UHGV virus genome: UHGV-0114643
Strand: one strand, 5' to 3'
Length of the DNA: 33,753 nt
Source of the DNA: a virus
Each line of letters begins with the position of its first letter. The first letter of the stretch is position 1. The notes under the pieces are model-generated. The model did not search any database, had not been told where the DNA came from, and saw only the letters and a program-made list of their open reading frames with translations. Both the position numbers and the translations under genes were made by a program. Below are positions 12,356 through 19,302 of this stretch, piece by piece.

Positions 12356-13771
12356 ATGAGCGAATTATTTAAACACTCGCATCTACATGCAGGTTTAACT
12401 GAAAACGGTGCTGTTAACCACACATCTTCAATGTCTGCACTGGTAGATTTCTACAAAGCTGCTGGTTCAAGCAGAACAAATGTAGAAGTTCTTCCAAACT
12501 TGTTTTACAAGGCAATGCGAGAAGATATTGATGTAGCAGTTCGAATCCTGTTACATATGCGAGATGCACGAGAAGGTATGGGTGAGCGTAAAGCGTTCCG
12601 TTATACTCTTACTAAAGCAATCTCTGACGGGATTCTTGATGAGTTTCAAGTATTACGTATCATGGACAAGATTTCTGATTTAGGTCGTTATGACGACTTT
12701 AAAATCTTTGTTGGTACACGTTACGAAACAGATGCTTTCAAGCATTTAGAATCGGCACTGTTAGACCCTGCAACATCGGCTCTGGCAGCAAAATGGTTAC
12801 CACGAGTAAAATCACGACACATGCGTTTTGTTCGTCGTTTCTGTAAGTTTGCAAATCTTTCAGAGAAGCAGTATCGAGTTCTTCTGTCAGCACTGTCTGA
12901 TACTGTTGAACAAAAGATTTCAGCAAACGAGTTTGGAGAGATTGATTACAGCAAGCTTCCTTCACTGGCTGCTGCACGTTATCAAAAACTCTTCAGTCGT
13001 AAAGATGGTGAGCGTTATGCAGCATACGTTACAGCACTGACTAAAGGTGAGACAAAGATTAATGCTGGTGCAGTCTACCCTTATGACATTACAAAGTCAG
13101 TCGGTTACGGTAATGCAACCGTTGCAAATGAGCAGTGGAAAGCTTTACCAAACTGGATGAAAGAGGGTGAAAACATTCTGTGCATGGCAGATGTATCTTC
13201 ATCTATGACTTGGGAGCGACATGGTTCTGTTACAGCGCTAGATATTGGTGTATCTTTAGCCCTGTACGTTTCAGAACGTAATACAGGTTGCTTTAAAGAT
13301 GAATTGATGGTTTACTCTAGCCGACCTCACTTCATCACATTGAGTGGTGATTTGCAGACTCGCTTACGACAAGTAAAGAGTCATGTAGAATATGGTTCAA
13401 CTGACCTACAAGCTGCTTTTGCAAGAATCCTTGAGATTGGTGTTAAAAACAACTTGACTCAGAAAGAGATGCCTAGTAAGCTTATCATCTTCTCTGATAT
13501 GCAGTTCAATCAGGTTGATGGAGCAGATGGTCGTACTAACTTTGAAGCAATTCAAGAAAAGTACAAGAAAGCTGGATATGAGATGCCACAACTGGTATTC
13601 TGGTACTTAGCAAACCGTAATGGTACTTGCGAAGTGTCTGTAAAGGATAACGGTGTAGCAATGGTATCTGGTTTCTCTCCAGCCACTTTAAAAGCTTTGC
13701 TTGGTGGTGAGAAGTTTGACCCTATCAGCGTAATGCTCAAAGCAGTAATGATTGAACGCTACGATTGGTAA
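12356..13771 (+). CDS. vWA-domain protein, 471 aa (helical N-terminal region + C-terminal von Willebrand A domain); possibly Ro60/TROVE-like or DUF2828-like
   Basis: MIDAS-like D-x-S-x-S in LCMADVSSSMTWE and beta-strand-like LIIFSDMQF seen in translation; fold family is inferred, not searched. Confidence 0.6.
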   Translation: MSELFKHSHLHAGLTENGAVNHTSSMSALVDFYKAAGSSRTNVEVLPNLFYKAMREDIDVAVRILLHMRDAREGMGERKAFRYTLTKAISDGILDEFQVLRIMDKISDLGRYDDFKIFVGTRYETDAFKHLESALLDPATSALAAKWLPRVKSRHMRFVRRFCKFANLSEKQYRVLLSALSDTVEQKISANEFGEIDYSKLPSLAAARYQKLFSRKDGERYAAYVTALTKGETKINAGAVYPYDITKSVGYGNATVANEQWKALPNWMKEGENILCMADVSSSMTWERHGSVTALDIGVSLALYVSERNTGCFKDELMVYSSRPHFITLSGDLQTRLRQVKSHVEYGSTDLQAAFARILEIGVKNNLTQKEMPSKLIIFSDMQFNQVDGADGRTNFEAIQEKYKKAGYEMPQLVFWYLANRNGTCEVSVKDNGVAMVSGFSPATLKALLGGEKFDPISVMLKAVMIERYDW

Positions 13772-13879: not shown

Positions 13880-13909
13880 TTGACAGACACTAAAAAATAG
13901 TGTTATAGT
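13880..13909 (+). promoter_or_regulatory. sigma70-like promoter (TTGACA-N18-TATAGT) about 30 nt upstream of the first tRNA
   Basis: Consensus hexamers read directly. Confidence 0.5.
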
Positions 13910-13936
13910 TGTTACATAGGTTGTTAAAAAGATTAT

Positions 13937-14016
13937 CTCCGTTTAGCTCAGTTTGGTTTAGCAGCACTTGCTTTGGGAGCAAGGGGTCGAGGGTTCAAAT
14001 CCTTCAACGGAGACCA
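13937..14016 (+). tRNA. tRNA-Pro (anticodon TGG), CCA encoded
   Basis: 7-bp acceptor stem CTCCGTT/AACGGAG, T-arm GAGGG-TTCAAAT-CCTTC, anticodon loop TTTGGGA. Confidence 0.8.
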
Positions 14017-14022
14017 AATTAT

Positions 14023-14100
14023 ATTCCCGTAGACAAATTAGGTAAAGTCAACACCCTTTCAAGGTGTGGTTTGAGGGTTCAAGTCCCTTCGGGAATGCCA
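14023..14100 (+). tRNA. tRNA-Glu (anticodon TTC), CCA encoded
   Basis: Perfect acceptor stem ATTCCCG/CGGGAAT, T-arm, anticodon loop CTTTCAA. Confidence 0.85.
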
Positions 14101-14107
14101 GTTTTGA

Positions 14108-14177
14108 CAGAAGACCAATTACAGCAAACAAACTTTTCAATTTCGCGCATAGAAATCCAAAAAAGATTTGGTCTGGT
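14108..14177 (+). repeat. inter-tRNA element a (CAGAAGACC ... GGTCTGGT family); candidate small structured RNA
   Basis: Shares 5' (CAGAAGACC-N-ACAGCAA) and 3' (GGTCTGGT) ends with three other spacers; terminal 5-bp helix AGACC/GGTCT. Confidence 0.6.
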
Positions 14178-14187
14178 CATTAAGAAT

Positions 14188-14264
14188 TGCGGGTATAGAG
14201 AAAGGGTGTCTCACATGTCTCATTAGCATGTTATCGGTAGGTTCGACTCCTACACCCGCCTCCA
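14188..14264 (+). tRNA. tRNA with CAT anticodon (Met, fMet or Ile2), atypical (U1:C72 mismatch, U at position 37)
   Basis: Acceptor TGCGGGT/ACCCGCC, T-arm GTAGG-TTCGACT-CCTAC, anticodon arm CATGT-CTCATTA-GCATG, CCA encoded. Confidence 0.55.
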
Positions 14265-14270
14265 AATTTA

Positions 14271-14336
14271 CAGAAGACCGTTTACAGCAAACACTTAAAA
14301 TTTTTTATAGGAAAAAATGAAAAGATACGGTCTGGT
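14271..14336 (+). repeat. inter-tRNA element b (CAGAAGACC ... GGTCTGGT family)
   Basis: Direct repeat of the element termini. Confidence 0.6.
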
Positions 14337-14347
14337 AATACTAATAT

Positions 14348-14424
14348 GGTTAGGAAGCACATAAGGCATGTGCGGTCGGCTGTTAACCGAATGGTACAGG
14401 GTTCGAATCCCTGACTAACCGCCA
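14348..14424 (+). tRNA. tRNA-Asn (anticodon GTT)
   Basis: Acceptor GGTTAGG/ACTAACC, D-stem GCAC/GTGC, anticodon loop CTGTTAA, T-arm CAGGG-TTCGAAT-CCCTG, CCA encoded. Confidence 0.8.
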
Positions 14425-14493
14425 AGATTTGGGAGAGAAGTGATTGCTCACCGATTTGTAAGGTGCAAGTCCTTAGCCTGAATAGAATAAAAT

Positions 14494-14581
14494 GCGTCGT
14501 TATCCCGTAGATGGAAGCGGTGGTGACTGTAAATCACTTGTCATTATGACTCGGTAGGTTCGACTCCTTCACGGCGCACCA
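14494..14581 (+). tRNA. tRNA-Tyr (anticodon GTA), long variable arm
   Basis: Acceptor GCGTCGT/ACGGCGC, anticodon arm GGTGA-CTGTAAA-TCACT, variable-arm hairpin, T-arm, CCA encoded. Confidence 0.8.
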
Positions 14582-14587
14582 AATAAA

Positions 14588-14664
14588 GGTTATGTAGTTT
14601 AACTGGTCAAAATACCTCCCTGTCACGGAGGATGATGAGGGTTCGAATCCCTTCGTAACCGCCA
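14588..14664 (+). tRNA. tRNA-Asp (anticodon GTC)
   Basis: Acceptor GGTTATG/CGTAACC, D-stem GTTT/AAAT, anticodon arm CCTCC-CTGTCAC-GGAGG, T-arm GAGGG-TTCGAAT-CCCTT, CCA encoded. Confidence 0.85.
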
Positions 14665-14725
14665 AATTTGAGAGGGCTTGTTAGCCCCTCCCTTAAAGAG
14701 TTCTTACGAGTATTCTTTAAAGGAG

Positions 14726-14800
14726 CAGAAGACCAAATACAGCAAGCAATTTTAATATTTCAAGCCAATTTAATTTGAAAAATTTAAAACTTGGTCTGGT
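14726..14800 (+). repeat. inter-tRNA element c (CAGAAGACC ... GGTCTGGT family)
   Basis: Direct repeat of the element termini. Confidence 0.6.
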
Positions 14801-14813
14801 TCCAACAATTTTA

Positions 14814-14940
14814 CAGAAGACCGTTTACAGCAAACAATAAACAATCTATTTCTCTGGTAAAGAAAAGGCGAAGGTTCGATTCCTTCACACGTTACGGCGT
14901 GTTGGTGTAATGGAAGCACTTAAGATAAATACGGTCTGGT
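14814..14940 (+). repeat. inter-tRNA element d (127 nt) with internal T-arm mimic (GAAGG-TTCGATT-CCTTC) and D-arm-like hairpin; candidate Y-RNA-like ncRNA
   Basis: Same termini as a-c; tRNA-like motifs present but no acceptor stem pairing, so not a tRNA. Confidence 0.5.
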
Positions 14941-15089
14941 AATCCTCTTTGCAGTGACTTATGGAGCTAATATGTCGTCCCATGAGTGCCGATGAGTTTC
15001 TTGAGCATGATTCTAGATTAGCTTACTAAGAGACAACTCTACAAACCCTTTAGCAAGGTTTGCGTAGGTTACTGCAAAGATGATTTAAT

Positions 15090-15165
15090 GGAAGTGTAGC
15101 AGAATGGTGATGCGGCAGACTTTTAATCTGACAGGCGACGGGTTCGAATCCCTCCACTTCTACCA
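15090..15165 (+). tRNA. tRNA-Lys (anticodon TTT)
   Basis: Acceptor GGAAGTG/CACTTCT, anticodon loop CTTTTAA, T-loop GGGTTCGAATCCC, CCA encoded. Confidence 0.8.
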
Positions 15166-15246
15166 AATTCGCCCCTTAACTGAAGAACACATGCGCGGCT
15201 GGAAACACCCACTCAATCAGTTCTCTACAAAGGGGCAACTTATAAT

Positions 15247-15323
15247 GGTTCAGTCGCAGATAAGGTAATGCAAGGGTTTCATAAGCCCTATGAATGTGGG
15301 TTCGATTCCCACCTGAACCTCCA
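15247..15323 (+). tRNA. tRNA-Met (anticodon CAT; could be initiator or Ile2)
   Basis: Perfect acceptor GGTTCAG/CTGAACC, anticodon arm AGGGT-TTCATAA-GCCCT, T-arm GTGGG-TTCGATT-CCCAC, CCA encoded. Confidence 0.8.
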
Positions 15324-15325
15324 AT

Positions 15326-15400
15326 TGTGGGTTAGCATAAATGGTAATGCAAACGGCTGATAACCGTTAGAAGAGGGTTCGATACCCTCACCTACAACCA
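15326..15400 (+). tRNA. tRNA-Ile (anticodon GAT)
   Basis: Acceptor TGTGGGT/ACCTACA, D-stem GCAT/ATGC, anticodon arm AACGG-CTGATAA-CCGTT, T-arm GAGGG-TTCGATA-CCCTC, CCA encoded. Confidence 0.85.
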
Positions 15401-15414
15401 ATTTCATAAAGTTG

Positions 15415-15443
15415 TTGACATTCAGATGTGACCACTTTAAGAT
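15415..15443 (+). promoter_or_regulatory. internal promoter-like element (TTGACA-N17-TAAGAT) inside the tRNA array
   Basis: Exact -35, 17-nt spacer, 4/6 at -10. Confidence 0.35.
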
Positions 15444-15676
15444 AACCTTAGTTTTCGTTAGCGTAGCGTCTATTTTAAAAACTTAAAAATAAATGCAAAC
15501 GATAATGTTTTTCTGGCAGTAGCTTAATAGGCTAAACACCAGCAGGGTATTCCAACTCCCTGTTAAAGAATTTGGCGTACTAGCCCACGGTATGATTAAT
15601 AAAGTGGGCAATATTCTAAAGAGCATCCCTTAAGGGGCTTGGCTTAAATGCAATGAGTGCTCTTTAAAATATTAAT

Positions 15677-15752
15677 GCTCCGTTAGTCTAAAGGATAGGC
15701 AACTGTCTTCTAAACAGTTCATATATAGGTTCGAGTCCTATACGGAGTGCCA
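15677..15752 (+). tRNA. tRNA-Arg (anticodon TCT)
   Basis: Acceptor GCTCCGT/ACGGAGT, D-stem GTCT/AGGC, anticodon arm ACTGT-CTTCTAA-ACAGT, T-arm ATAGG-TTCGAGT-CCTAT, CCA encoded. Confidence 0.85.
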
Positions 15753-15813
15753 ATTCTAATGGTCAAGACAACACGAGTAAGTTATCTTAGATACGCGTTA
15801 AGAGATAAACGAA

Positions 15814-15881
15814 AGTCGGAAAGTTGCTGAAGGGTAGCTCCCTTCGATAGTAAGTAGGTTCGACTCCTACCTTGACTGCCA
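15814..15881 (+). tRNA. tRNA-like element, probably degenerate or interrupted (canonical T-arm and 3' end with CCA, but no D-arm; a perfect 5' acceptor partner GGTCAAG lies at 15761-15767)
   Basis: T-arm GTAGG-TTCGACT-CCTAC and 3' strand CTTGACT-G-CCA; only 65 nt from the nearest 5' partner, 118 nt from the perfect one. Confidence 0.3.
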
Positions 15882-16046
15882 AATAGTTAGCAGATTACTA
15901 CGACGACCTTTATGGGTCTCCGCATTGACTTGAAAGAGTCAATCTCATAAGGAGGTGGTCTGTATCTCATGTTTTCCAGAACATGTAAATAATCTGAGAA
16001 GAAGCTTGACAGTGTTGAGATAACAGGGTAAGCTTCGAAATATAGT

Positions 16047-16129
16047 ATGGGACGATGTTAAGACACTAAGGCATGTGCGTAAGCCTCCAAAACTTACTCA
16101 AAGGGGTTCGAATCCTCCGTCCCATGCCA
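16047..16129 (+). tRNA. atypical tRNA, candidate tRNA-Trp (CCA inside a 9-nt anticodon loop CCUCCAAAA; D region ~7 nt too long)
   Basis: Perfect acceptor ATGGGAC/GTCCCAT, T-loop GGGGTTCGAATCC, CCA encoded; Trp is the only amino acid otherwise missing from the array. Confidence 0.45.
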
Positions 16130-16142
16130 AAGTCTTATTAGG

Positions 16143-16230
16143 GGTAGGTAGCGGCTAATGGAAGCCAAACTGTCTTGAAAACAGTTGCCATTGTAGAGAT
16201 ACGGTGAGGGTTCGACTCCTTTATCTACCG
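16143..16230 (+). tRNA. tRNA-Ser (anticodon TGA), long variable arm; 3' CCA not encoded (CCT follows)
   Basis: Acceptor GGTAGGT/ATCTACC, anticodon arm ACTGT-CTTGAAA-ACAGT, 20-nt variable arm, T-arm GAGGG-TTCGACT-CCTTT. Confidence 0.75.
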
Positions 16231-16485
16231 CCTAATAAGATTTAAAGCTGAGACTCGCTGTTCGGGCAAGTGTTTCAGGTTTCCTCTTCGTGTATTGGCG
16301 TACACGGCACTGGTAAAACACCTAGTAGGTGTCACGGAGAAGAGATAGTATCAAGCTCTCCAAAGGTTCTAGTCACCGGATTAAACAAGACTATGCAAAG
16401 GCCAATAGGTCTTTTTAGAGAATTGTTAAGATGTTTAATACCATTGTTGCTTTGGTGTCTTAGCAGTTCTCTACAAAGATTTAAT

Positions 16486-16562
16486 GCACCTATAGCCCAA
16501 CTGGAAGAGGCAGCAGACTTAGAATCTGCTCAGTGTGAGTTCGAATCTCTCTAGGTGTACCA
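16486..16562 (+). tRNA. tRNA with Leu anticodon TAG, class-II-like D-arm but short variable loop
   Basis: Acceptor GCACCTA/TAGGTGT, anticodon arm GCAGA-CTTAGAA-TCTGC, discriminator A, CCA encoded. Confidence 0.7.
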
Positions 16563-16569
16563 AATTAAT

Positions 16570-16645
16570 GCAGGTGTAGCAAAATGGTTATGCGGCTGAC
16601 TCTTAATCAGTAAGACGATGGGTTCAATTCCCTCCACCTGTACCA
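16570..16645 (+). tRNA. tRNA-Lys (anticodon CTT)
   Basis: Acceptor GCAGGTG/CACCTGT, anticodon loop CTCTTAA, T-loop GGGTTCAATTCCC, CCA encoded. Confidence 0.8.
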
Positions 16646-16651
16646 AACAAT

Positions 16652-16727
16652 GGGGATGTAGTTTACATGGTTAAAACATAAGTTTTGCAAACTTAAGTAC
16701 AGGGTTCAATTCCCTGCTTCTCCACCA
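16652..16727 (+). tRNA. tRNA-Ala (anticodon TGC) with G3:U70 identity pair
   Basis: Acceptor GGGGATG/CTTCTCC, D-stem GTTT/AAAC, anticodon arm TAAGT-TTTGCAA-ACTTA, T-arm CAGGG-TTCAATT-CCCTG, CCA encoded. Confidence 0.85.
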
Positions 16728-16733
16728 ATTAGT

Positions 16734-16808
16734 GCATCCATAGTTTAAACGGGAAAATTACAGTCTTCCAAACTGAGGTTGAGGGTTCGATTCCCTCTGG
16801 ATGCTCCA
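16734..16808 (+). tRNA. tRNA-Gly (anticodon TCC)
   Basis: Perfect acceptor GCATCCA/TGGATGC, anticodon loop CTTCCAA, T-arm GAGGG-TTCGATT-CCCTC, CCA encoded. Confidence 0.85.
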
Positions 16809-16814
16809 AATAAT

Positions 16815-16890
16815 GCTCTTATCGTATAATTGGCTATTACGGTTGCCTTGTAAGCAACTTATCAGGGTTCGAATCCTTGTGGGAGCACCA
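16815..16890 (+). tRNA. tRNA-Thr (anticodon TGT)
   Basis: Acceptor GCTCTTA/TGGGAGC, anticodon arm GTTGC-CTTGTAA-GCAAC, T-arm CAGGG-TTCGAAT-CCTTG, CCA encoded. Confidence 0.85.
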
Positions 16891-16987
16891 ATTTTGAGGT
16901 CAAGTGAAAGACCGCTTGAGTCAACTGAAGACCGTAACAAATTCCACGGAGTTGAGTTAGCGGCACAGCTTCAGACCTCTTTTCAAA

Positions 16988-17062
16988 GCTCGCTTAGTTT
17001 ATATGGTAAAGCCCCATCCTTACAAGTTGGTGAAGAAGGTTCAAGTCCTTCAGCGAGTACCA
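16988..17062 (+). tRNA. tRNA-Val (anticodon TAC)
   Basis: Acceptor GCTCGCT/AGCGAGT, D-stem GTTT/AAGC, anticodon loop CTTACAA, T-arm GAAGG-TTCAAGT-CCTTC, CCA encoded. Confidence 0.75.
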
Positions 17063-17063
17063 A

Positions 17064-17141
17064 GTTCCAGTATCCCAATTGGCAGAGGATGCAAGCTCAA
17101 ACCTTGTATTAGTGACGGTTCGAATCCGTCTTGGAACACCA
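17064..17141 (+). tRNA. tRNA with Leu anticodon CAA, class-II-like D-arm (3-bp stem, CAATTGGCAGA loop) but short variable loop
   Basis: Acceptor GTTCCAG/TTGGAAC, anticodon arm GCAAG-CTCAAAC-CTTGT, T-arm GACGG-TTCGAAT-CCGTC, discriminator A, CCA encoded. Confidence 0.7.
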
Positions 17142-17156
17142 AATTAGGAGATTCCT

Positions 17157-17369
17157 ATGAAGCCTTATGGTAGACATGGTAAAGTTGAAATTGCAAGTTG
17201 TGGTTGCTGTGCTTCTCACGATGGTGAAGAAGATTACTACAAGTGGCGTACAGACCATCGTAAACGCTTTCTCAGAAGAGATAAGAAGAAAGCTAGACAG
17301 GAATCTCGAAAGAATATTGCAGAATTAGTTCAAATGGATAGAACAGCAATCTACGAAGTTGTTTGTTAG
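17157..17369 (+). CDS. small basic Cys-containing hypothetical protein, 70 aa; last ~17 codons overlap tRNA-Arg
   Basis: ATG with AGGAGA 7 nt upstream; ORF in track; overlap makes the true extent uncertain. Confidence 0.35.
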   Translation: MKPYGRHGKVEIASCGCCASHDGEEDYYKWRTDHRKRFLRRDKKKARQESRKNIAELVQMDRTAIYEVVC

Positions 17370-17395
17370 GGGTTCGAATCCCTTATTCTGCACCA
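17319..17395 (+). tRNA. tRNA-Arg (anticodon ACG)
   Basis: Perfect acceptor GCAGAAT/ATTCTGC, D-stem GTTC/GAAC, anticodon arm GCAAT-CTACGAA-GTTGT, T-arm AGGGG-TTCGAAT-CCCTT, CCA encoded. Confidence 0.8.
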
Positions 17396-17413
17396 ATTTT
17401 AGAAGGTAATTAT

Positions 17414-17641
17414 ATGCGTAAACTCATTATTGAAAGGCATAAAGATGCTGACAAGATTGAAACAACACAAGTTGGGGACACTGACTTCATTCTTGTAGGT
17501 TGGAAATGTGACCCAATAGCAGCTATGAAGGTTGTTCATGGTTTTGCAGGAATTGAATTTAATCAAATCATATTTGAAACGCTATTACCAGAAAATCAGG
17601 ATACGTGTAATAACGCATATGTCCTGACAAGAGTTCGTTAG
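17414..17641 (+). CDS. hypothetical protein, 75 aa (paralogue A: MRKLIIERH ... DTCNNAYVLTRVR); start moved to the ATG with a proper RBS
   Basis: About 60% identical to 17686..17913; AGAAGG upstream of ATG. Confidence 0.5.
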   Translation: MRKLIIERHKDADKIETTQVGDTDFILVGWKCDPIAAMKVVHGFAGIEFNQIIFETLLPENQDTCNNAYVLTRVR

Positions 17642-17667
17642 GGGTTCGAATCCCTTATTCTGCACCA
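17633..17667 (+). pseudogene. tRNA 3' fragment (T-arm + acceptor 3' strand + CCA), identical to the 3' end of tRNA-Arg(ACG); duplication scar
   Basis: 30 of 31 nt identical to 17365-17395; no complementary 5' acceptor strand or D-arm upstream. Confidence 0.55.
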
Positions 17668-17685
17668 AATTTAAAAGGGTAACTT

Positions 17686-17913
17686 ATGTTTAAACTCATA
17701 GTTGAAAAACACCCAGAAGATGACAAGCTTGAAACAGGGAGATTTGGAGATACTTTCTTTATCAGAGTTGGCTGGAAAGCTGACCCATTAGAAGTTAGAA
17801 AGATTGTCTACAACTTTGCTGGTTTGGAATTAAAGCAAGTCATCTTTGAAACAATGTTGCCAGAAAATAAAGATACATGCAATAACGCATATATTCTTAC
17901 AAGAGTTAGTTAG
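17686..17913 (+). CDS. hypothetical protein, 75 aa (paralogue B: MFKLIVEKH ... DTCNNAYILTRVS)
   Basis: ORF in track; AAGGG upstream; paralogous to 17414..17641. Confidence 0.5.
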   Translation: MFKLIVEKHPEDDKLETGRFGDTFFIRVGWKADPLEVRKIVYNFAGLELKQVIFETMLPENKDTCNNAYILTRVS

Positions 17914-17987
17914 GGGATTAGTTTACAAGGTTAAAACCTCGGTCTTTGAAATCGAAGAAGTTGGTTCAATTCCAACATCCCCCGCCA
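17912..17987 (+). tRNA. tRNA-Gln (anticodon TTG); starts inside the stop codon of the preceding ORF
   Basis: Acceptor AGGGGAT/ATCCCCC (A1:C72), D-stem GTTT/AAAC, anticodon arm TCGGT-CTTTGAA-ATCGA, T-arm GTTGG-TTCAATT-CCAAC, CCA encoded. Confidence 0.8.
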
Positions 17988-17989
17988 AT

Positions 17990-18068
17990 GCTCCATTACT
18001 CCAATTGGCAGAGAGGCCAGACTTAAAATCTGTGTTATGTATCGGTTCGAATCCGATATGGAGTACCA
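17990..18068 (+). tRNA. tRNA with Leu anticodon TAA, class-II-like D-arm but short variable loop
   Basis: Perfect acceptor GCTCCAT/ATGGAGT, D-arm CTC-CAATTGGCA-GAG, anticodon arm CCAGA-CTTAAAA-TCTGT, T-arm ATCGG-TTCGAAT-CCGAT, discriminator A, CCA encoded. Confidence 0.7.
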
Positions 18069-18074
18069 AATATT

Positions 18075-18150
18075 AGCAGTGTAGCATAACTGGCAATGCT
18101 CCAGCCTCTGAAGCTGAATGATTAAGGTTCAAATCCTTACGCTGCTGCCA
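18075..18150 (+). tRNA. tRNA-Gln (anticodon CTG)
   Basis: Acceptor AGCAGTG/CGCTGCT, D-stem GCAT/ATGC, anticodon loop CTCTGAA, T-arm TAAGG-TTCAAAT-CCTTA, CCA encoded. Confidence 0.8.
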
Positions 18151-18181
18151 CTTCTAAGGGTTCTTACGAGAGTCCTTAAAT

Positions 18182-18255
18182 GTGGCCTTATCATAAATGG
18201 ACAATGACCCATGCTGTGAACATGGTCTATACGGGTTCGATTCCCGTAGGTCACC
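18182..18255 (+). tRNA. tRNA-His (anticodon GTG); 3' tail reads C-CCCCA rather than N-CCA and no obvious G-1
   Basis: Acceptor GTGGCCT/AGGTCAC, perfect D-stem TCAT/ATGA, anticodon arm CCATG-CTGTGAA-CATGG, T-arm ACGGG-TTCGATT-CCCGT. Confidence 0.7.
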
Positions 18256-18267
18256 CCCCAATTCAAT

Positions 18268-18343
18268 AGCTCAATTAGCTTATATGGTTAAAGCGCGTGT
18301 CTGAAAAACATGAGAACAGGGTTCAAATCCCGATGGGCTACCA
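18268..18343 (+). tRNA. tRNA-Phe (anticodon GAA), acceptor/T-stem register ambiguous
   Basis: D-stem GCTT/AAGC, anticodon arm CGTGT-CTGAAAA-ACATG, T-loop GGGTTCAAATCCC, 3' ...ACCA. Confidence 0.6.
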
Positions 18344-18359
18344 ATTTTATAGGTGCATA

Positions 18360-19094
18360 ATGAAAGAGATGACAGAACAAGGTAAAGAGATTTTTGGTCT
18401 CCTTAAATCTGGTAACGGGTTCTCTAACCCTCTTATTACTGGTGCAGCAGTTCTTGGTGGTACTGTAGCTGCCTCTCAATCATTAGTTAACTCAATTAGT
18501 TCTGTAACAGACCCAGCTACACAACAGATTTTAGTTGCTGCTGGACTGACAACAGCCTTATTAGGAAGCTTCACAACAAGCCTTGGAAGGACAACTTCAA
18601 CGACAAGTACACTCACTGAGTATGGACAAAAGTCTGTAGATGAGTTTTCACAACGTATGCAAGTAGCTAAGGGTTACTCTAATGTTATGGGAGCAGCAGG
18701 TGAACAGGTTGGATGTACACCGTTTAGTGGTATCATGGGCGTAGCTACCGAGTACGGTAATAAAGCGATGGATTTGATTAATACCTCCATAGACGCTGTA
18801 AATAGCGTTCTAAGCGATTTGCAAGATGCAATCGACCAAGGACTAGATACAATCTCTGAACTCGCTACACAGGCCGTTACAGCGATTAATGAGGGTATTG
18901 CAAAGATTACTGCATATGCTAATGAAGTAACTCAGATGATTGCAGATGAAGCAGCACTGATTGCAGAATACCTGAAAACAAATATTAATGGTTTCCTTGC
19001 GAATGTTCTACCAAGCTGGTTTGATGATTCATGTAAAACTGGTGTGATTGACACTATCGCAACTCCAGAGATGAAAGAAGCTCTGAACAAATAA
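18360..19094 (+). CDS. hypothetical protein (~244 aa), Ala/Thr/Ser/Gly-rich with hydrophobic N-terminal segment; start moved downstream of the tRNA
   Basis: Track ORF began inside tRNA-Phe; ATG at 18360 has AGGTG upstream. Confidence 0.5.
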   Translation: MKEMTEQGKEIFGLLKSGNGFSNPLITGAAVLGGTVAASQSLVNSISSVTDPATQQILVAAGLTTALLGSFTTSLGRTTSTTSTLTEYGQKSVDEFSQRMQVAKGYSNVMGAAGEQVGCTPFSGIMGVATEYGNKAMDLINTSIDAVNSVLSDLQDAIDQGLDTISELATQAVTAINEGIAKITAYANEVTQMIADEAALIAEYLKTNINGFLANVLPSWFDDSCKTGVIDTIATPEMKEALNK

Positions 19095-19095
19095 C

Positions 19096-19188
19096 GGAAG
19101 ATTAACCCTAAAAGGTAAGGGAGCAGTTTGCTAAACTGCCAGTAACCGAGAAATCGGCGTACCAGTTCAAGTCTGGTATCTTCCTCCA
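19096..19188 (+). tRNA. tRNA-Ser (anticodon GCT), long variable arm
   Basis: Perfect acceptor GGAAGAT/ATCTTCC, 3-bp D-stem, anticodon arm GCAGT-TTGCTAA-ACTGC, T-arm ACCAG-TTCAAGT-CTGGT, CCA encoded. Confidence 0.8.
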
Positions 19189-19194
19189 AATTAT

Positions 19195-19270
19195 GTGTCG
19201 GTGTCAGAAATGGTTATGTCCCTGTCTGCAAAACAGGTTTATGAGGGTTCGAGTCCCTTCCGATACTCCA
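19195..19270 (+). tRNA. tRNA-Cys (anticodon GCA)
   Basis: Acceptor GTGTCGG/CCGATAC, anticodon arm CCTGT-CTGCAAA-ACAGG, T-arm GAGGG-TTCGAGT-CCCTT, CCA encoded. Confidence 0.8.
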
Positions 19271-19302
19271 ATTTATATTAATATCTCTCTCAAAGTTATT
19301 AT

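What the first reader, a model, noticed from the sequence alone, without database searches (positions are those of the whole stretch)
16486..18068. Three Leu-anticodon tRNAs with class-II D-arms but short variable loops
The tRNAs at 16486-16562 (TAG), 17064-17141 (CAA) and 17990-18068 (TAA) have Leu-like features: discriminator A73, a 3-bp D-stem and an 11-nt D-loop of the CAATTGGCAGA type. All three have only 4-6 nt between the anticodon and T stems, not the 13-15-nt arm of bacterial tRNA-Leu. Either they are unusual class-I Leu tRNAs, or their identity differs from what the anticodon implies.
Basis: seen in the sequence. Interest (0 to 1): 0.55.

Follow-up and report, generated by a model that had tools for sequence, protein, structure and literature searches.

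The report
Phage leucine tRNAs without long arm
Three leucine tRNA genes of this Felix-O1-like coliphage really do lack the long extra arm that reviews say bacterial leucine tRNAs always carry; they keep every other leucine recognition feature and belong to a large, little-noticed family found in roughly a third of phage leucine tRNA genes sampled.

Summary
ARAGORN and Rfam's tRNA model both fold 16486-16562 (UAG), 17064-17141 (CAA) and 17990-18068 (UAA) as full cloverleaves. Each has A73, encoded CCA, a 3-bp D stem, an 11-nt D loop in the same register as all five E. coli tRNA-Leu, and U48. Their variable loops are 5, 6 and 7 nt, against 13-15 nt in the host.

The window is a Mooglevirus-like Ounavirinae phage. 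Its tRNA-Ser (90 and 93 nt) and tRNA-Tyr (88 nt) keep long arms.

Published tRNAscan-SE isotype scores for Shigella phage Sf14 put the Leu model first for all three. Two of those Sf14 tRNAs are identical to the window's and one differs by 1 nt.

These are type I tRNA-Leu. That kind was previously described for animal mitochondria and one Streptomyces coelicolor gene. Pattern scans show it is common: about 31% of Leu tRNAs in a scan-order sample of viral contigs, isolated phages of hosts from five bacterial phyla, and solitary chromosomal genes in Actinomycetota. Covariation supports all 20 cloverleaf pairs.

The most likely mechanism is leucylation by host LeuRS, which does not need the arm. 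This is inferred, not shown. E. coli LeuRS failed to charge the Streptomyces type I tRNA, so a direct charging test is worthwhile.

The parts
16486..16562 (+). Type I tRNA-Leu(UAG), 77 nt. Anticodon at 16520-16522. 17-nt D arm at 16495-16511. 5-nt variable loop TCAGT at 16530-16534. A73 at 16559. CCA at 16560-16562. G1.U72; one U.U mismatch in the T stem; anticodon loop CUUAGAA (A37).
   Evidence: ARAGORN; Rfam RF00005 54.5 bits with alignment; segmentation; identical to Sf14 tRNA-Leu-TAG, whose top tRNAscan-SE isotype is Leu at 67.4.
17064..17141 (+). Type I tRNA-Leu(CAA), 78 nt. Anticodon at 17098-17100. D arm at 17073-17089. 6-nt variable loop ATTAGT at 17108-17113. A73 at 17138. CCA at 17139-17141. 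Anticodon loop CUCAAAC (C38).
   Evidence: ARAGORN; Rfam 44.0 bits; segmentation; at least 99% identical in 160 phage records; identical to Sf14, where the Leu isotype scores 49.1 and the next best 36.1.
17990..18068 (+). Type I tRNA-Leu(UAA), 79 nt. Anticodon at 18024-18026. D arm at 17999-18015. 7-nt variable loop GTTATGT at 18034-18040. A73 at 18065. CCA at 18066-18068. G1.U72; C27.U43 mismatch.
   Evidence: ARAGORN; Rfam 47.5 bits; segmentation; 1 nt different from Sf14 (C32 vs U32), where the Leu isotype scores 60.2 and the next best 54.2.
16143..16232 (+). Context: tRNA-Ser(UGA), 90 nt, long variable arm retained.
19096..19188 (+). Context: tRNA-Ser(GCU), 93 nt, long variable arm retained.
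14494..14581 (+). Context: tRNA-Tyr(GUA), 88 nt, long variable arm retained. ARAGORN missed it because of one T-stem mismatch (T at 14555).
   Evidence: Alignment to the annotated tRNA-Tyr of phage 3HA14, 1 difference; weak Rfam hit at 14496-14576.

Best explanation
The three genes are functional type I (short-variable-loop) leucine tRNAs. They are made from the phage's 26-gene tRNA cluster with an encoded CCA end.

Most likely the host leucyl-tRNA synthetase charges them with leucine. That enzyme reads the discriminator A73 and the shape of the D-loop/T-loop elbow: A14, the A15-U48 pair, G18G19 in the Leu-specific register, and A20a. It does not read the anticodon or the long arm.

The anticodons UAA, CAA and UAG cover UUA, UUG, CUA and CUG, and probably CUU. 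The phage uses UUA, CUU and CUA far more than E. coli does.

The arm could be lost only in the leucine tRNAs, because serine identity rests mainly on that arm (review; the corresponding point for bacterial tyrosine tRNA is from my own knowledge). This fits the phage keeping long arms on tRNA-Ser and tRNA-Tyr.

Shown here: the genes, the fold, the conserved identity elements, membership of a large covarying family, and the Leu isotype score. Inferred: charging by enterobacterial LeuRS and use in translation.
For: 1. Structure.

2. Identity elements: all those that the review gives for E. coli tRNA-Leu are present, and the review states that the long arm and anticodon are not needed and that arm-less variants stay active. 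U48 was not imposed by my search pattern, yet it is T in 230 of 230 unique 77-nt family members.

3. D arm specificity: the 17-nt D arm (3 bp plus NAAYYGGNAGA) occurs in 353 of 520 Leu-anticodon tRNAs but only 4 of about 1,880 others in the fetched loci.

4. Published tRNAscan-SE isotype models rank Leu first for identical or near-identical sequences.

5. Family membership: an HMM built only from type I Leu tRNAs less than 85% identical to the window's scores 54.3, 42.3 and 44.3 bits. The best other isotype scores 39.5, 19.4 and 31.5. No other window tRNA prefers this model.

6. Covariation: in 96 family members less than 80% identical to each other, 98.1% of cells pair against 58% in shuffles and at most 46% when partners are slid. 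All 20 pairs show double changes.

7. Conservation: Erwinia phage Hena2 (Kolesnikvirus) also has three type I Leu tRNAs (CAA, AAG, UAA), with quite different stems but the same architecture.

8. Within contigs only Leu loses the arm. In 120 viral stretches carrying short Leu tRNAs, tRNA-Ser is 84-96 nt (one exception in 86) and tRNA-Tyr is 80-94 nt.

9. Precedent: the S. coelicolor type I tRNA-Leu(CAA), with the 5-nt loop ACAGC, is leucylated by its own LeuRS and by human mitochondrial LeuRS (PMC6614811).

10. Codon demand: in the window's ORFs, Leu codons are UUA 24%, UUG 15%, CUU 28%, CUC 5%, CUA 10% and CUG 17%. Sf14 uses UUA and CUA significantly more than its host.
Against: There is no direct charging or expression data for these tRNAs.

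Fan et al. 2019 report that E. coli LeuRS did not charge the S. coelicolor type I tRNA-Leu(CAA), and they describe EcLeuRS as charging only type II. [quoted passage not shown] That Streptomyces tRNA has C48, not the U48 that E. coli LeuRS identity requires. This may explain the failure, but that is my inference.

The core of the phage tRNAs differs from host tRNA-Leu: A9 and C13 instead of G9 and R13.

For Leu-UAG the tRNAscan-SE margin is thin: Leu 67.4, Ile2 65.7, Lys 63.4. In my own surrogate models without the type I profile, Arg scored best for it. RefSeq labels the tRNA at the corresponding position of the cluster in phage Si3 (just before Lys-Ala-Gly-Thr) as 'tRNA-OTHER', pseudo.
Confidence: 0.8

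Rival explanations
1. The identity differs from the anticodon. Another synthetase charges the tRNAs, or none does, so that UUR/CUN codons are misread or the tRNAs are translationally inert.
For: Without the long arm they resemble class I tRNAs. For Leu-UAG the Ile2 (65.7) and Lys (63.4) isotype models score almost as high as Leu (67.4). E. coli LeuRS failed on a Streptomyces type I tRNA-Leu. 14 of the 26 Sf14 tRNAs are 'inconsistent' with their isotype model, so phage tRNAs in general fit bacterial models poorly.
Against: Synthetases other than LeuRS, SerRS and AlaRS rely largely on anticodon bases, which here are Leu anticodons (my own knowledge; the review excerpts I read, show this only for some systems, such as Tyr U35 and Arg C35). 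G3:U70 (Ala) is absent, as are the long arm and G73 (Ser). Leu is the top isotype for all three. The Leu-specific 17-nt D arm, A73 and A15-U48 are conserved across hundreds of diverged homologues that all carry Leu anticodons.
Confidence: 0.06
2. The tRNAs act mainly outside decoding. For example, they could be decoys or sponges for host tRNA-targeting defence nucleases or for LeuRS, and loss of the arm reflects relaxed translational constraint.
For: Phage tRNAs and tRNA arrays have been proposed as anti-defence elements (abstract of PMC12803027). A tRNase that cleaves tRNA-Leu in the anticodon region exists in Salmonella, the Gifsy-1 terminase. The anticodon loops differ from the host's at positions 32, 37 and 38.
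Against: All four helices covary, and the elbow, A73, CCA and 7-nt anticodon loops with U33 are strictly kept. This is what decoding demands, and more than a decoy would need. The anticodon set matches the phage's shifted Leu codon usage. The same type I form is the solitary tRNA-Leu(UAA) or (CAA) gene in the fetched chromosomal stretches of Mycobacterium, Rhodococcus, Corynebacterium and Micromonospora, where it presumably has to decode, although I did not survey the rest of those genomes.
Confidence: 0.07
3. They do decode leucine, but the arm was lost for an adaptive reason: to tell phage tRNA-Leu apart from host tRNA-Leu. That would let them escape a host or phage-encoded nuclease, or a modification dependence, that recognises class II tRNA-Leu. 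This rival concerns the cause of arm loss and is compatible with the best explanation.
For: Arm loss is nearly all-or-none within a contig: 104 viral loci have only short Leu tRNAs and 15 have both kinds. It comes with a shift from G37 to A37 in NAG-anticodon tRNAs: 46 of 74 have A37 in type I, against 17 of 68 in type II. It recurs in phages of hosts from five phyla. No E. coli genome holds a similar gene.
Against: No nuclease is known that reads the Leu variable arm; the Gifsy-1 enzyme cuts in the anticodon region. Actinobacterial chromosomes carry the same form with no phage context. Neutral loss allowed by an arm-blind synthetase, followed by spread through phage gene exchange, explains the data equally well.
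Confidence: 0.12
4. It is an annotation or folding artefact: a different fold or different gene boundaries would restore a long variable arm.
For: None found.
Against: The genes are 77-79 nt including CCA, with 7/7 acceptor pairs and, for two of the three, another tRNA starting 7 nt after the CCA. Two independent programs agree. Variable-loop lengths in the arm-agnostic scan fall into two groups, 3-9 and 11-21 nt.
Confidence: 0.01

Closest known systems
Type I tRNA-Leu(CAA) of Streptomyces coelicolor (Fan et al. 2019, NAR; PMC6614811)
   Same: It has a Leu anticodon, a 5-nt variable loop (ACAGC, against TCAGT in the window's Leu-UAG) and an ACCA 3' end. A14-U8 matters for its charging. It shares one cytoplasm with type II tRNAs and a single bacterial-type LeuRS, and it has been shown to be leucylated.
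   Different: It is chromosomal and a single isoacceptor. It has C48 rather than U48. Its synthetase does not use A73. E. coli LeuRS did not charge it. The window has three isoacceptors on a virulent enterobacterial phage whose host has only type II tRNA-Leu.
E. coli K-12 type II tRNA-Leu (leuW UAG, leuX CAA, leuZ UAA, leuQPV CAG, leuU GAG)
   Same: The anticodons match (UAG, CAA, UAA). They share A73, encoded CCA, a 3-bp D stem with an 11-nt loop and identical G18G19 register, A14, A15, A20a and U48.
   Different: The host tRNAs have a 13-15-nt variable stem-loop, G9 and R13 (the phage has A9 and C13), and G37 in the CUN reader (the phage has A37). Identity outside the arm and anticodon is only 41-62%.
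Animal mitochondrial tRNA-Leu(UUR)
   Same: It is a short-variable-loop Leu tRNA whose identity rests on A73 and A14.
   Different: It has a fragile, partly unfolded structure and is read by a dedicated mitochondrial LeuRS that also contacts the anticodon stem. The phage tRNAs have a canonical, well-paired cloverleaf.
Engineered arm-less E. coli tRNA-Leu variants (Asahara 1998, Larkin 2002, Tocchini-Valentini 2000, as summarised in PMC9976931)
   Same: They show that E. coli LeuRS can charge tRNA-Leu bodies without the long arm, provided A73 and the D/T elbow are intact. The phage tRNAs meet exactly those conditions.
   Different: They are laboratory constructs on the host tRNA body. The phage tRNAs are natural, have diverged, and have a remodelled core (A9, C13).
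Phage T5 tRNA-Leu(UAG)
   Same: It is a phage-borne tRNA-Leu within a large tRNA cluster of a virulent coliphage.
   Different: T5's is 85 nt, so it keeps the long arm.

Membership tests
tRNA (Rfam RF00005) | Full cloverleaf scoring above the gathering threshold | tested here: met
   54.5, 44.0 and 47.5 bits against 29; model positions 1-71 all matched.
Canonical bacterial (type II) tRNA-Leu | Leu anticodon (NAG or YAA) | tested here: met
   UAG, CAA, UAA.
Canonical bacterial (type II) tRNA-Leu | Discriminator A73 | tested here: met
   A73 in all three.
Canonical bacterial (type II) tRNA-Leu | Leu-type D arm: 3-bp stem, 11-nt loop, A14, A15, G18G19 register, A20a | tested here: met
   Same register as the five E. 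coli tRNA-Leu. In the fetched loci this arm occurs in 353 of 520 Leu tRNAs and 4 of about 1,880 non-Leu tRNAs.
Canonical bacterial (type II) tRNA-Leu | A15-U48 Levitt pair | tested here: met
   All three variable loops end in T. U48 is present in 230 of 230 family members and was not imposed by the search pattern.
Canonical bacterial (type II) tRNA-Leu | Long variable arm (more than 10 nt, stem-loop) | tested here: not met
   5, 6 and 7 nt, against 13-15 nt in E. coli.
Canonical bacterial (type II) tRNA-Leu | Bacterial Leu isotype covariance model is the best-scoring isotype (tRNAscan-SE 2.0) | not testable with these tools
   I could not run it here. It is published for Sf14 (two tRNAs identical, one 1 nt different): Leu is top at 67.4, 49.1 and 60.2. 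My HMM surrogate was right for only 13 of 22 control tRNAs. Without the type I profile it put Leu_II first for CAA and UAA but Arg first for UAG.
Type I (short-loop) tRNA-Leu, as in S. coelicolor tRNA-Leu(CAA) | Leu anticodon combined with a short variable loop (5 nt typical, 10 or fewer) | tested here: met
Type I (short-loop) tRNA-Leu, as in S. coelicolor tRNA-Leu(CAA) | Family signature found here: U8-A9, C12-G23, C13, 17-nt D arm, loop ending GU or UU, A73 | tested here: met
   All three window tRNAs have TA, a D stem ending in C12-G23, and C13. The profile built from remote members scores 54.3, 42.3 and 44.3 bits, the best of all isotype profiles.
Type I (short-loop) tRNA-Leu, as in S. coelicolor tRNA-Leu(CAA) | Leucylation by the resident LeuRS | not testable with these tools
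   Shown for S. coelicolor only. E. coli LeuRS was negative on that substrate.
tRNA-Ser identity (considered) | Long variable arm and G73 | tested here: not met
   Short loop and A73; rule from the review.
tRNA-Ala identity (considered) | G3:U70 wobble pair | tested here: not met
   The 3-70 pair is A-U, U-A and U-A; rule from the review.

The most novel reading that the evidence does not exclude
Loss of the long arm is an adaptive way of telling phage tRNA-Leu from host tRNA-Leu, not a neutral loss. Type I tRNA-Leu would still be charged by an arm-blind LeuRS, but would be invisible to a host defence nuclease, a phage-encoded host-shutoff tRNase, or a modification requirement such as m1G37 that acts on class II tRNA-Leu. 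This would explain why the form has spread through phage tRNA clusters and mobile tRNA arrays across bacterial phyla.
Probability: 0.1. Interest if true: 0.75.

Novelty: new member of a known kind. Interest (0 to 1): 0.5.

Why it matters
[quoted passage not shown] The one bacterial exception studied was presented as rare, and E. coli LeuRS was described as charging only type II tRNA-Leu.

This window, and the surveys it led to, show a different picture:
- Arm-less tRNA-Leu make up a large share of phage tRNA-Leu genes.
- They occur in phages of Enterobacteria whose hosts have only type II tRNA-Leu.
- They are native chromosomal genes in many Actinomycetota.

This gives a natural system for three questions: what the Leu arm is for, whether enterobacterial LeuRS really discriminates against type I substrates, and why annotation pipelines sometimes label such genes 'tRNA-OTHER' or pseudogenes.

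There is also a practical use. Compact natural LeuRS substrates with Leu identity are relevant to suppressor-tRNA and genetic-code engineering based on the EcLeuRS pair.

Tried and rejected
1. A nearest-neighbour isotype classifier on overall identity was uninformative, because stem sequences dominate. About half of the control tRNAs were misassigned.

2. Per-isotype HMMs, with the variable region and anticodon removed and close relatives excluded, were right for only 13 of 22 controls. I use them only to show membership of the type I Leu profile, not as an isotype verdict.

3. A first D-loop motif count was misleading. The ordinary class I D arm GCUC-AAUUGGUA-GAGC also matches NAAYYGGNAGA. 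The count became Leu-specific only after requiring the 17-nt arm with a 3-bp stem.

4. I looked for an alternative long-arm fold and rejected it on length and boundaries.

5. Larkin et al. 2002 could not be read, so I rely on the review's summary.

6. Seven literature searches for any description of short-arm tRNA-Leu in phages found none. The Sf14 tRNA paper never uses the word 'variable'.

7. The Gifsy-1 tRNase lead cuts in the anticodon region, not the arm.

8. BLAST of Leu-UAG against 5,426 complete E. coli genomes found nothing. Against plasmids it found only Calothrix, Tsukamurella and Nocardia records.

9. A PDB sequence search with the adjacent DUF2828 protein found nothing.

10. The prevalence figures depend on a pattern that requires encoded ACCA and the AAYYGGNAGA loop. 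They are rough estimates.
Full report
**What the window is.** The tRNA region (13900-19300) is 96% identical to Citrobacter phage BSwM KMM2. It is 93-97% identical to the Moogle-like phages of Shigella, E. coli and Citrobacter (Ounavirinae, Mooglevirus). 357 phage records match it. ARAGORN finds 25 tRNAs between 13937 and 19270. A 26th, tRNA-Tyr at 14494-14581, was missed because of one T-stem mismatch.

**Checking the observation.** Segmentation gives a 7-bp acceptor stem, U8-A9, a 3-bp D stem and an 11-nt D loop. The loop is CAACUGGAAGA in Leu-UAG and CAAUUGGCAGA in the other two. After that come 5-bp anticodon and T stems, A73 and an encoded CCA. The variable regions are UCAGU (5 nt), AUUAGU (6 nt) and GUUAUGU (7 nt).

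I fetched the five E. coli K-12 tRNA-Leu species. They have the same 3-bp stem and 11-nt loop (RAAYYGGUAGA), A73 and a variable region that ends in U, but that region is 13-15 nt long. With a total length of 77-79 nt, perfect acceptor pairing and closely packed neighbouring genes, no fold with a long arm is possible. The observation therefore stands. The only corrections are that the loops are 5-7 nt rather than 4-6, and that the D loop of Leu-UAG differs slightly from the quoted type.

**Only leucine lost the arm.** The window's tRNA-Ser are 90 and 93 nt and fold with a long arm. tRNA-Tyr is 88 nt. The same holds in Erwinia phage Hena2, a different genus of the subfamily. It has three Leu tRNAs of 77-78 nt (anticodons CAA, AAG, UAA) with very different stem sequences but the same architecture, while its Tyr is 83 nt and its Ser are 91 and 93 nt.

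**Identity.** The 2023 identity review lists, for E. coli tRNA-Leu, A73, the A15-U48 pair, G18G19, A20a and the D/T-loop tertiary pairs. A14 comes from the E. coli identity set in Fan et al. 2019's introduction and from the review's passage on mitochondrial tRNA-Leu. The review states that neither the anticodon nor the long arm is crucial, and that variants lacking the arm remain active. All of these elements are present in the three tRNAs.

The determinants of the other anticodon-independent synthetases are absent. There is no G3:U70, no long arm and no G73.

I could not run it, but it has been published for Shigella phage Sf14 (PMC12482277). Sf14's Leu-UAG and Leu-CAA are identical to the window's, and its Leu-UAA differs at one base. 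The Leu model is the top isotype for all three:

| tRNA | Leu score | Next best |
|---|---|---|
| Leu-UAG | 67.4 | Ile2 65.7, Lys 63.4 |
| Leu-CAA | 49.1 | 36.1 |
| Leu-UAA | 60.2 | 54.2 |

The authors class all three as 'consistent'. That paper does not mention the variable region at all.

**They belong to a large family.** I wrote a pattern requiring ACCA, a T loop, a Leu anticodon loop, the AAYYGGNAGA D loop and a variable region of 3-9 nt. It hits the window three times and shuffled sequence never.

ARAGORN on those stretches finds 175 Leu tRNAs of 74-80 nt. In the same stretches tRNA-Ser is 84-96 nt (one exception in 86) and tRNA-Tyr is 80-94 nt. 85 of the 120 stretches are tRNA clusters with at least 5 tRNAs.

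An arm-agnostic version of the pattern, taken in scan order, returned 31 short-arm and 89 long-arm stretches. Variable lengths fell into two groups, 3-9 and 11-21 nt. Counting all ARAGORN Leu tRNAs in that sample, about 31% are type I, and 38% within clusters. Contigs are mostly all-short or all-long. These fractions depend on the pattern and are rough.

BLAST of Leu-UAG against isolated phages finds homologues, mostly ungapped, aligned across the variable region. All are annotated tRNA-Leu. They occur in these phages:
- Mycobacterium (Bxz1-like)
- Streptomyces, Gordonia and Rhodococcus
- Klebsiella, Cronobacter and Enterobacter
- Bacillus, Enterococcus and Lactobacillus
- Pseudomonas and Synechococcus
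- crAss-like phages

Four were checked in their records:

| Phage | Leu tRNAs | Other class II tRNAs |
|---|---|---|
| Klebsiella FBKp34 | Leu-UAG 78 nt, Leu-UAA 92 nt | Ser 86 nt |
| Mycobacterium ET08 | three Leu of 74-76 nt | pseudo-tRNA-Ser 85 nt |
| Enterococcus EFDG1 | Leu-UAG 74 nt, Leu-UAA 84 nt | Ser 87 nt |
| crAss-like cr111_1 | Leu 75 and 78 nt | Tyr 86 nt, Ser 87 nt |

T5, in contrast, keeps a type II tRNA-Leu of 85 nt.

**Cellular genomes.** Most hits are in Actinomycetota, Cyanobacteria, Acidobacteriota and Planctomycetota. 69 of the 120 stretches hold a solitary tRNA and 35 are arrays. The solitary genes are tRNA-Leu(UAA) or (CAA), in Mycobacterium, Rhodococcus, Corynebacterium, Salinispora and Micromonospora among others. 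No complete E. coli genome contains anything similar to the phage Leu-UAG.

**Family anatomy.** Type I members share U8-A9, C13 (CAAYYGGNAGA) and a 5-nt loop ending GU or UU. Type II members have G9 and R13. A9 goes with C12-G23 (174 sequences) and G9 with G12-C23 (37 sequences). This suggests a base-triple constraint and at least two structural subtypes. U48 was not imposed by the pattern and is invariant in 230 of 230.

C13 could pair with the G that I number 21, leaving a bulged A. The D arm then looks like an ordinary class I arm plus one extra nucleotide. That is why a loose motif also matched class I tRNAs. The full 17-nt arm is Leu-specific: 353 of 520 Leu tRNAs against 4 of about 1,880 others.

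On 96 members less than 80% identical to each other, the cloverleaf with a 3-bp D stem and 5-nt variable loop is strongly supported. 98.1% of cells pair, against 58% in shuffles and 38-46% when partners are slid. All 20 pairs have changes on both sides.

A profile built from type I members less than 85% identical to the window's tRNAs scores them 54.3, 42.3 and 44.3 bits. That is above every other isotype profile, and no other window tRNA prefers it.

**Mechanism.** The best-supported reading is that these are working leucine tRNAs charged by the host LeuRS through arm-independent recognition. They supply the decoders for UUA, UUG, CUA, CUG and probably CUU. The window's ORFs use UUA 24%, CUU 28%, CUA 10% and CUG only 17%. 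From general knowledge, CUG makes up about half of E. coli Leu codons. Sf14 uses UUA and CUA significantly more than its host.

Serine identity rests primarily on the variable arm. Leucine is therefore the class II tRNA that can most readily lose the arm without losing its identity.

The steps 'transcribed, processed, charged with Leu, used on the ribosome' are inferred.

The main counter-evidence is Fan et al. 2019. E. coli LeuRS did not charge the S. coelicolor type I tRNA-Leu(CAA), and the authors regard EcLeuRS as type II-only. That tRNA has C48, so it lacks the U48 of the A15-U48 element. The phage tRNAs keep U48. Whether this explains the difference is my inference and is directly testable.

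**Novelty.** The genes are annotated as tRNA-Leu in hundreds of GenBank records. The kind, type I tRNA-Leu, is known from mitochondria and S. coelicolor. I found no paper in the held library that notes it in phages. A current review states that tRNA-Leu has a long arm everywhere except animal mitochondria.

I therefore file this as a new member of a known kind. The wider point is that the kind is much more common than the literature suggests. Interest is moderate: the mechanism is probably ordinary, but it contradicts a textbook generalisation and sets up a clean biochemical test.

Noticed in passing
window 14494-14581 (+): tRNA-Tyr(GUA), 88 nt, with its long arm. ARAGORN did not call it. It differs from the annotated tRNA-Tyr of phage 3HA14 by one base (T at 14555 instead of G), which creates a T-stem mismatch.
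   Followed up: partly
window 17361-17916 (+): A tandem duplication with period 272 nt, 2 copies, 75% identical. The unit holds the last ~36 nt of tRNA-Arg(ACG) (second copy at about 17633-17668), a spacer and a 75-aa ORF (paralogues at 17414-17641 and 17686-17913, no Pfam match). Sf14 has no copy between tRNA-Arg and tRNA-Gln, and 3HA14 has room for one.
   Followed up: partly
window 17157-17369 (+): A 70-aa Cys- and Lys/Arg-rich ORF that starts 16 nt after tRNA-Leu(CAA) and runs into the 5' half of tRNA-Arg(ACG) (17319-17395). No Pfam match.
   Followed up: no
window 12356-13771 (+); also L340 3789-5228: A 471-aa protein with DUF2828 and DUF7788 domains lies directly upstream of the tRNA cluster. 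A DUF2828 protein sits in the same position before the tRNA cluster of the unrelated Klebsiella phage FBKp34. The Si3 record calls the homologue 'RNA-binding protein'. No PDB sequence match.
   Followed up: partly
L075:8320, L082:3543, L110:4547, L211:2442: Four viral tRNAs with a Glu anticodon (UUC) carry the otherwise Leu-specific 17-nt D arm and A73. Three of them have an intermediate-length variable region (80 nt in total). They may be Leu-derived bodies with a changed anticodon.
   Followed up: no
window 14820-14894 (+): A tRNA-like match just below Rfam's threshold (28.8 against 29 bits), in the gap between tRNA-Asp and tRNA-Lys. It may be a decayed tRNA.
   Followed up: no
window 16518-16524, 17096-17102, 18022-18028 (anticodon loops): The anticodon loops differ from the host isoacceptors. 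There is C32 in all three, A37 and A38 instead of G37 and U38 in Leu-UAG, and C38 in Leu-CAA, which breaks the A36-A37-A38 motif. Across the family, NAG-anticodon type I tRNAs mostly have A37 and type II mostly G37.
   Followed up: partly
L338 3423-3497 (Salmonella phage Si3, RefSeq): RefSeq annotates the tRNA at the Leu-UAG position of the cluster (just before Lys-Ala-Gly-Thr) as 'tRNA-OTHER' and marks it as a pseudogene. ARAGORN finds a 78-nt tRNA-Leu just before tRNA-Lys in the same locus. Automated pipelines can therefore mislabel type I tRNA-Leu.
   Followed up: partly
L218, L220, L235, L239, L292 (cellular genomes): Solitary chromosomal type I tRNA-Leu(UAA) in Mycobacterium, Rhodococcus and Corynebacterium, and type I tRNA-Leu(CAA) in Salinispora and Micromonospora. 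The form looks native to many Actinomycetota, not only S. coelicolor.
   Followed up: partly
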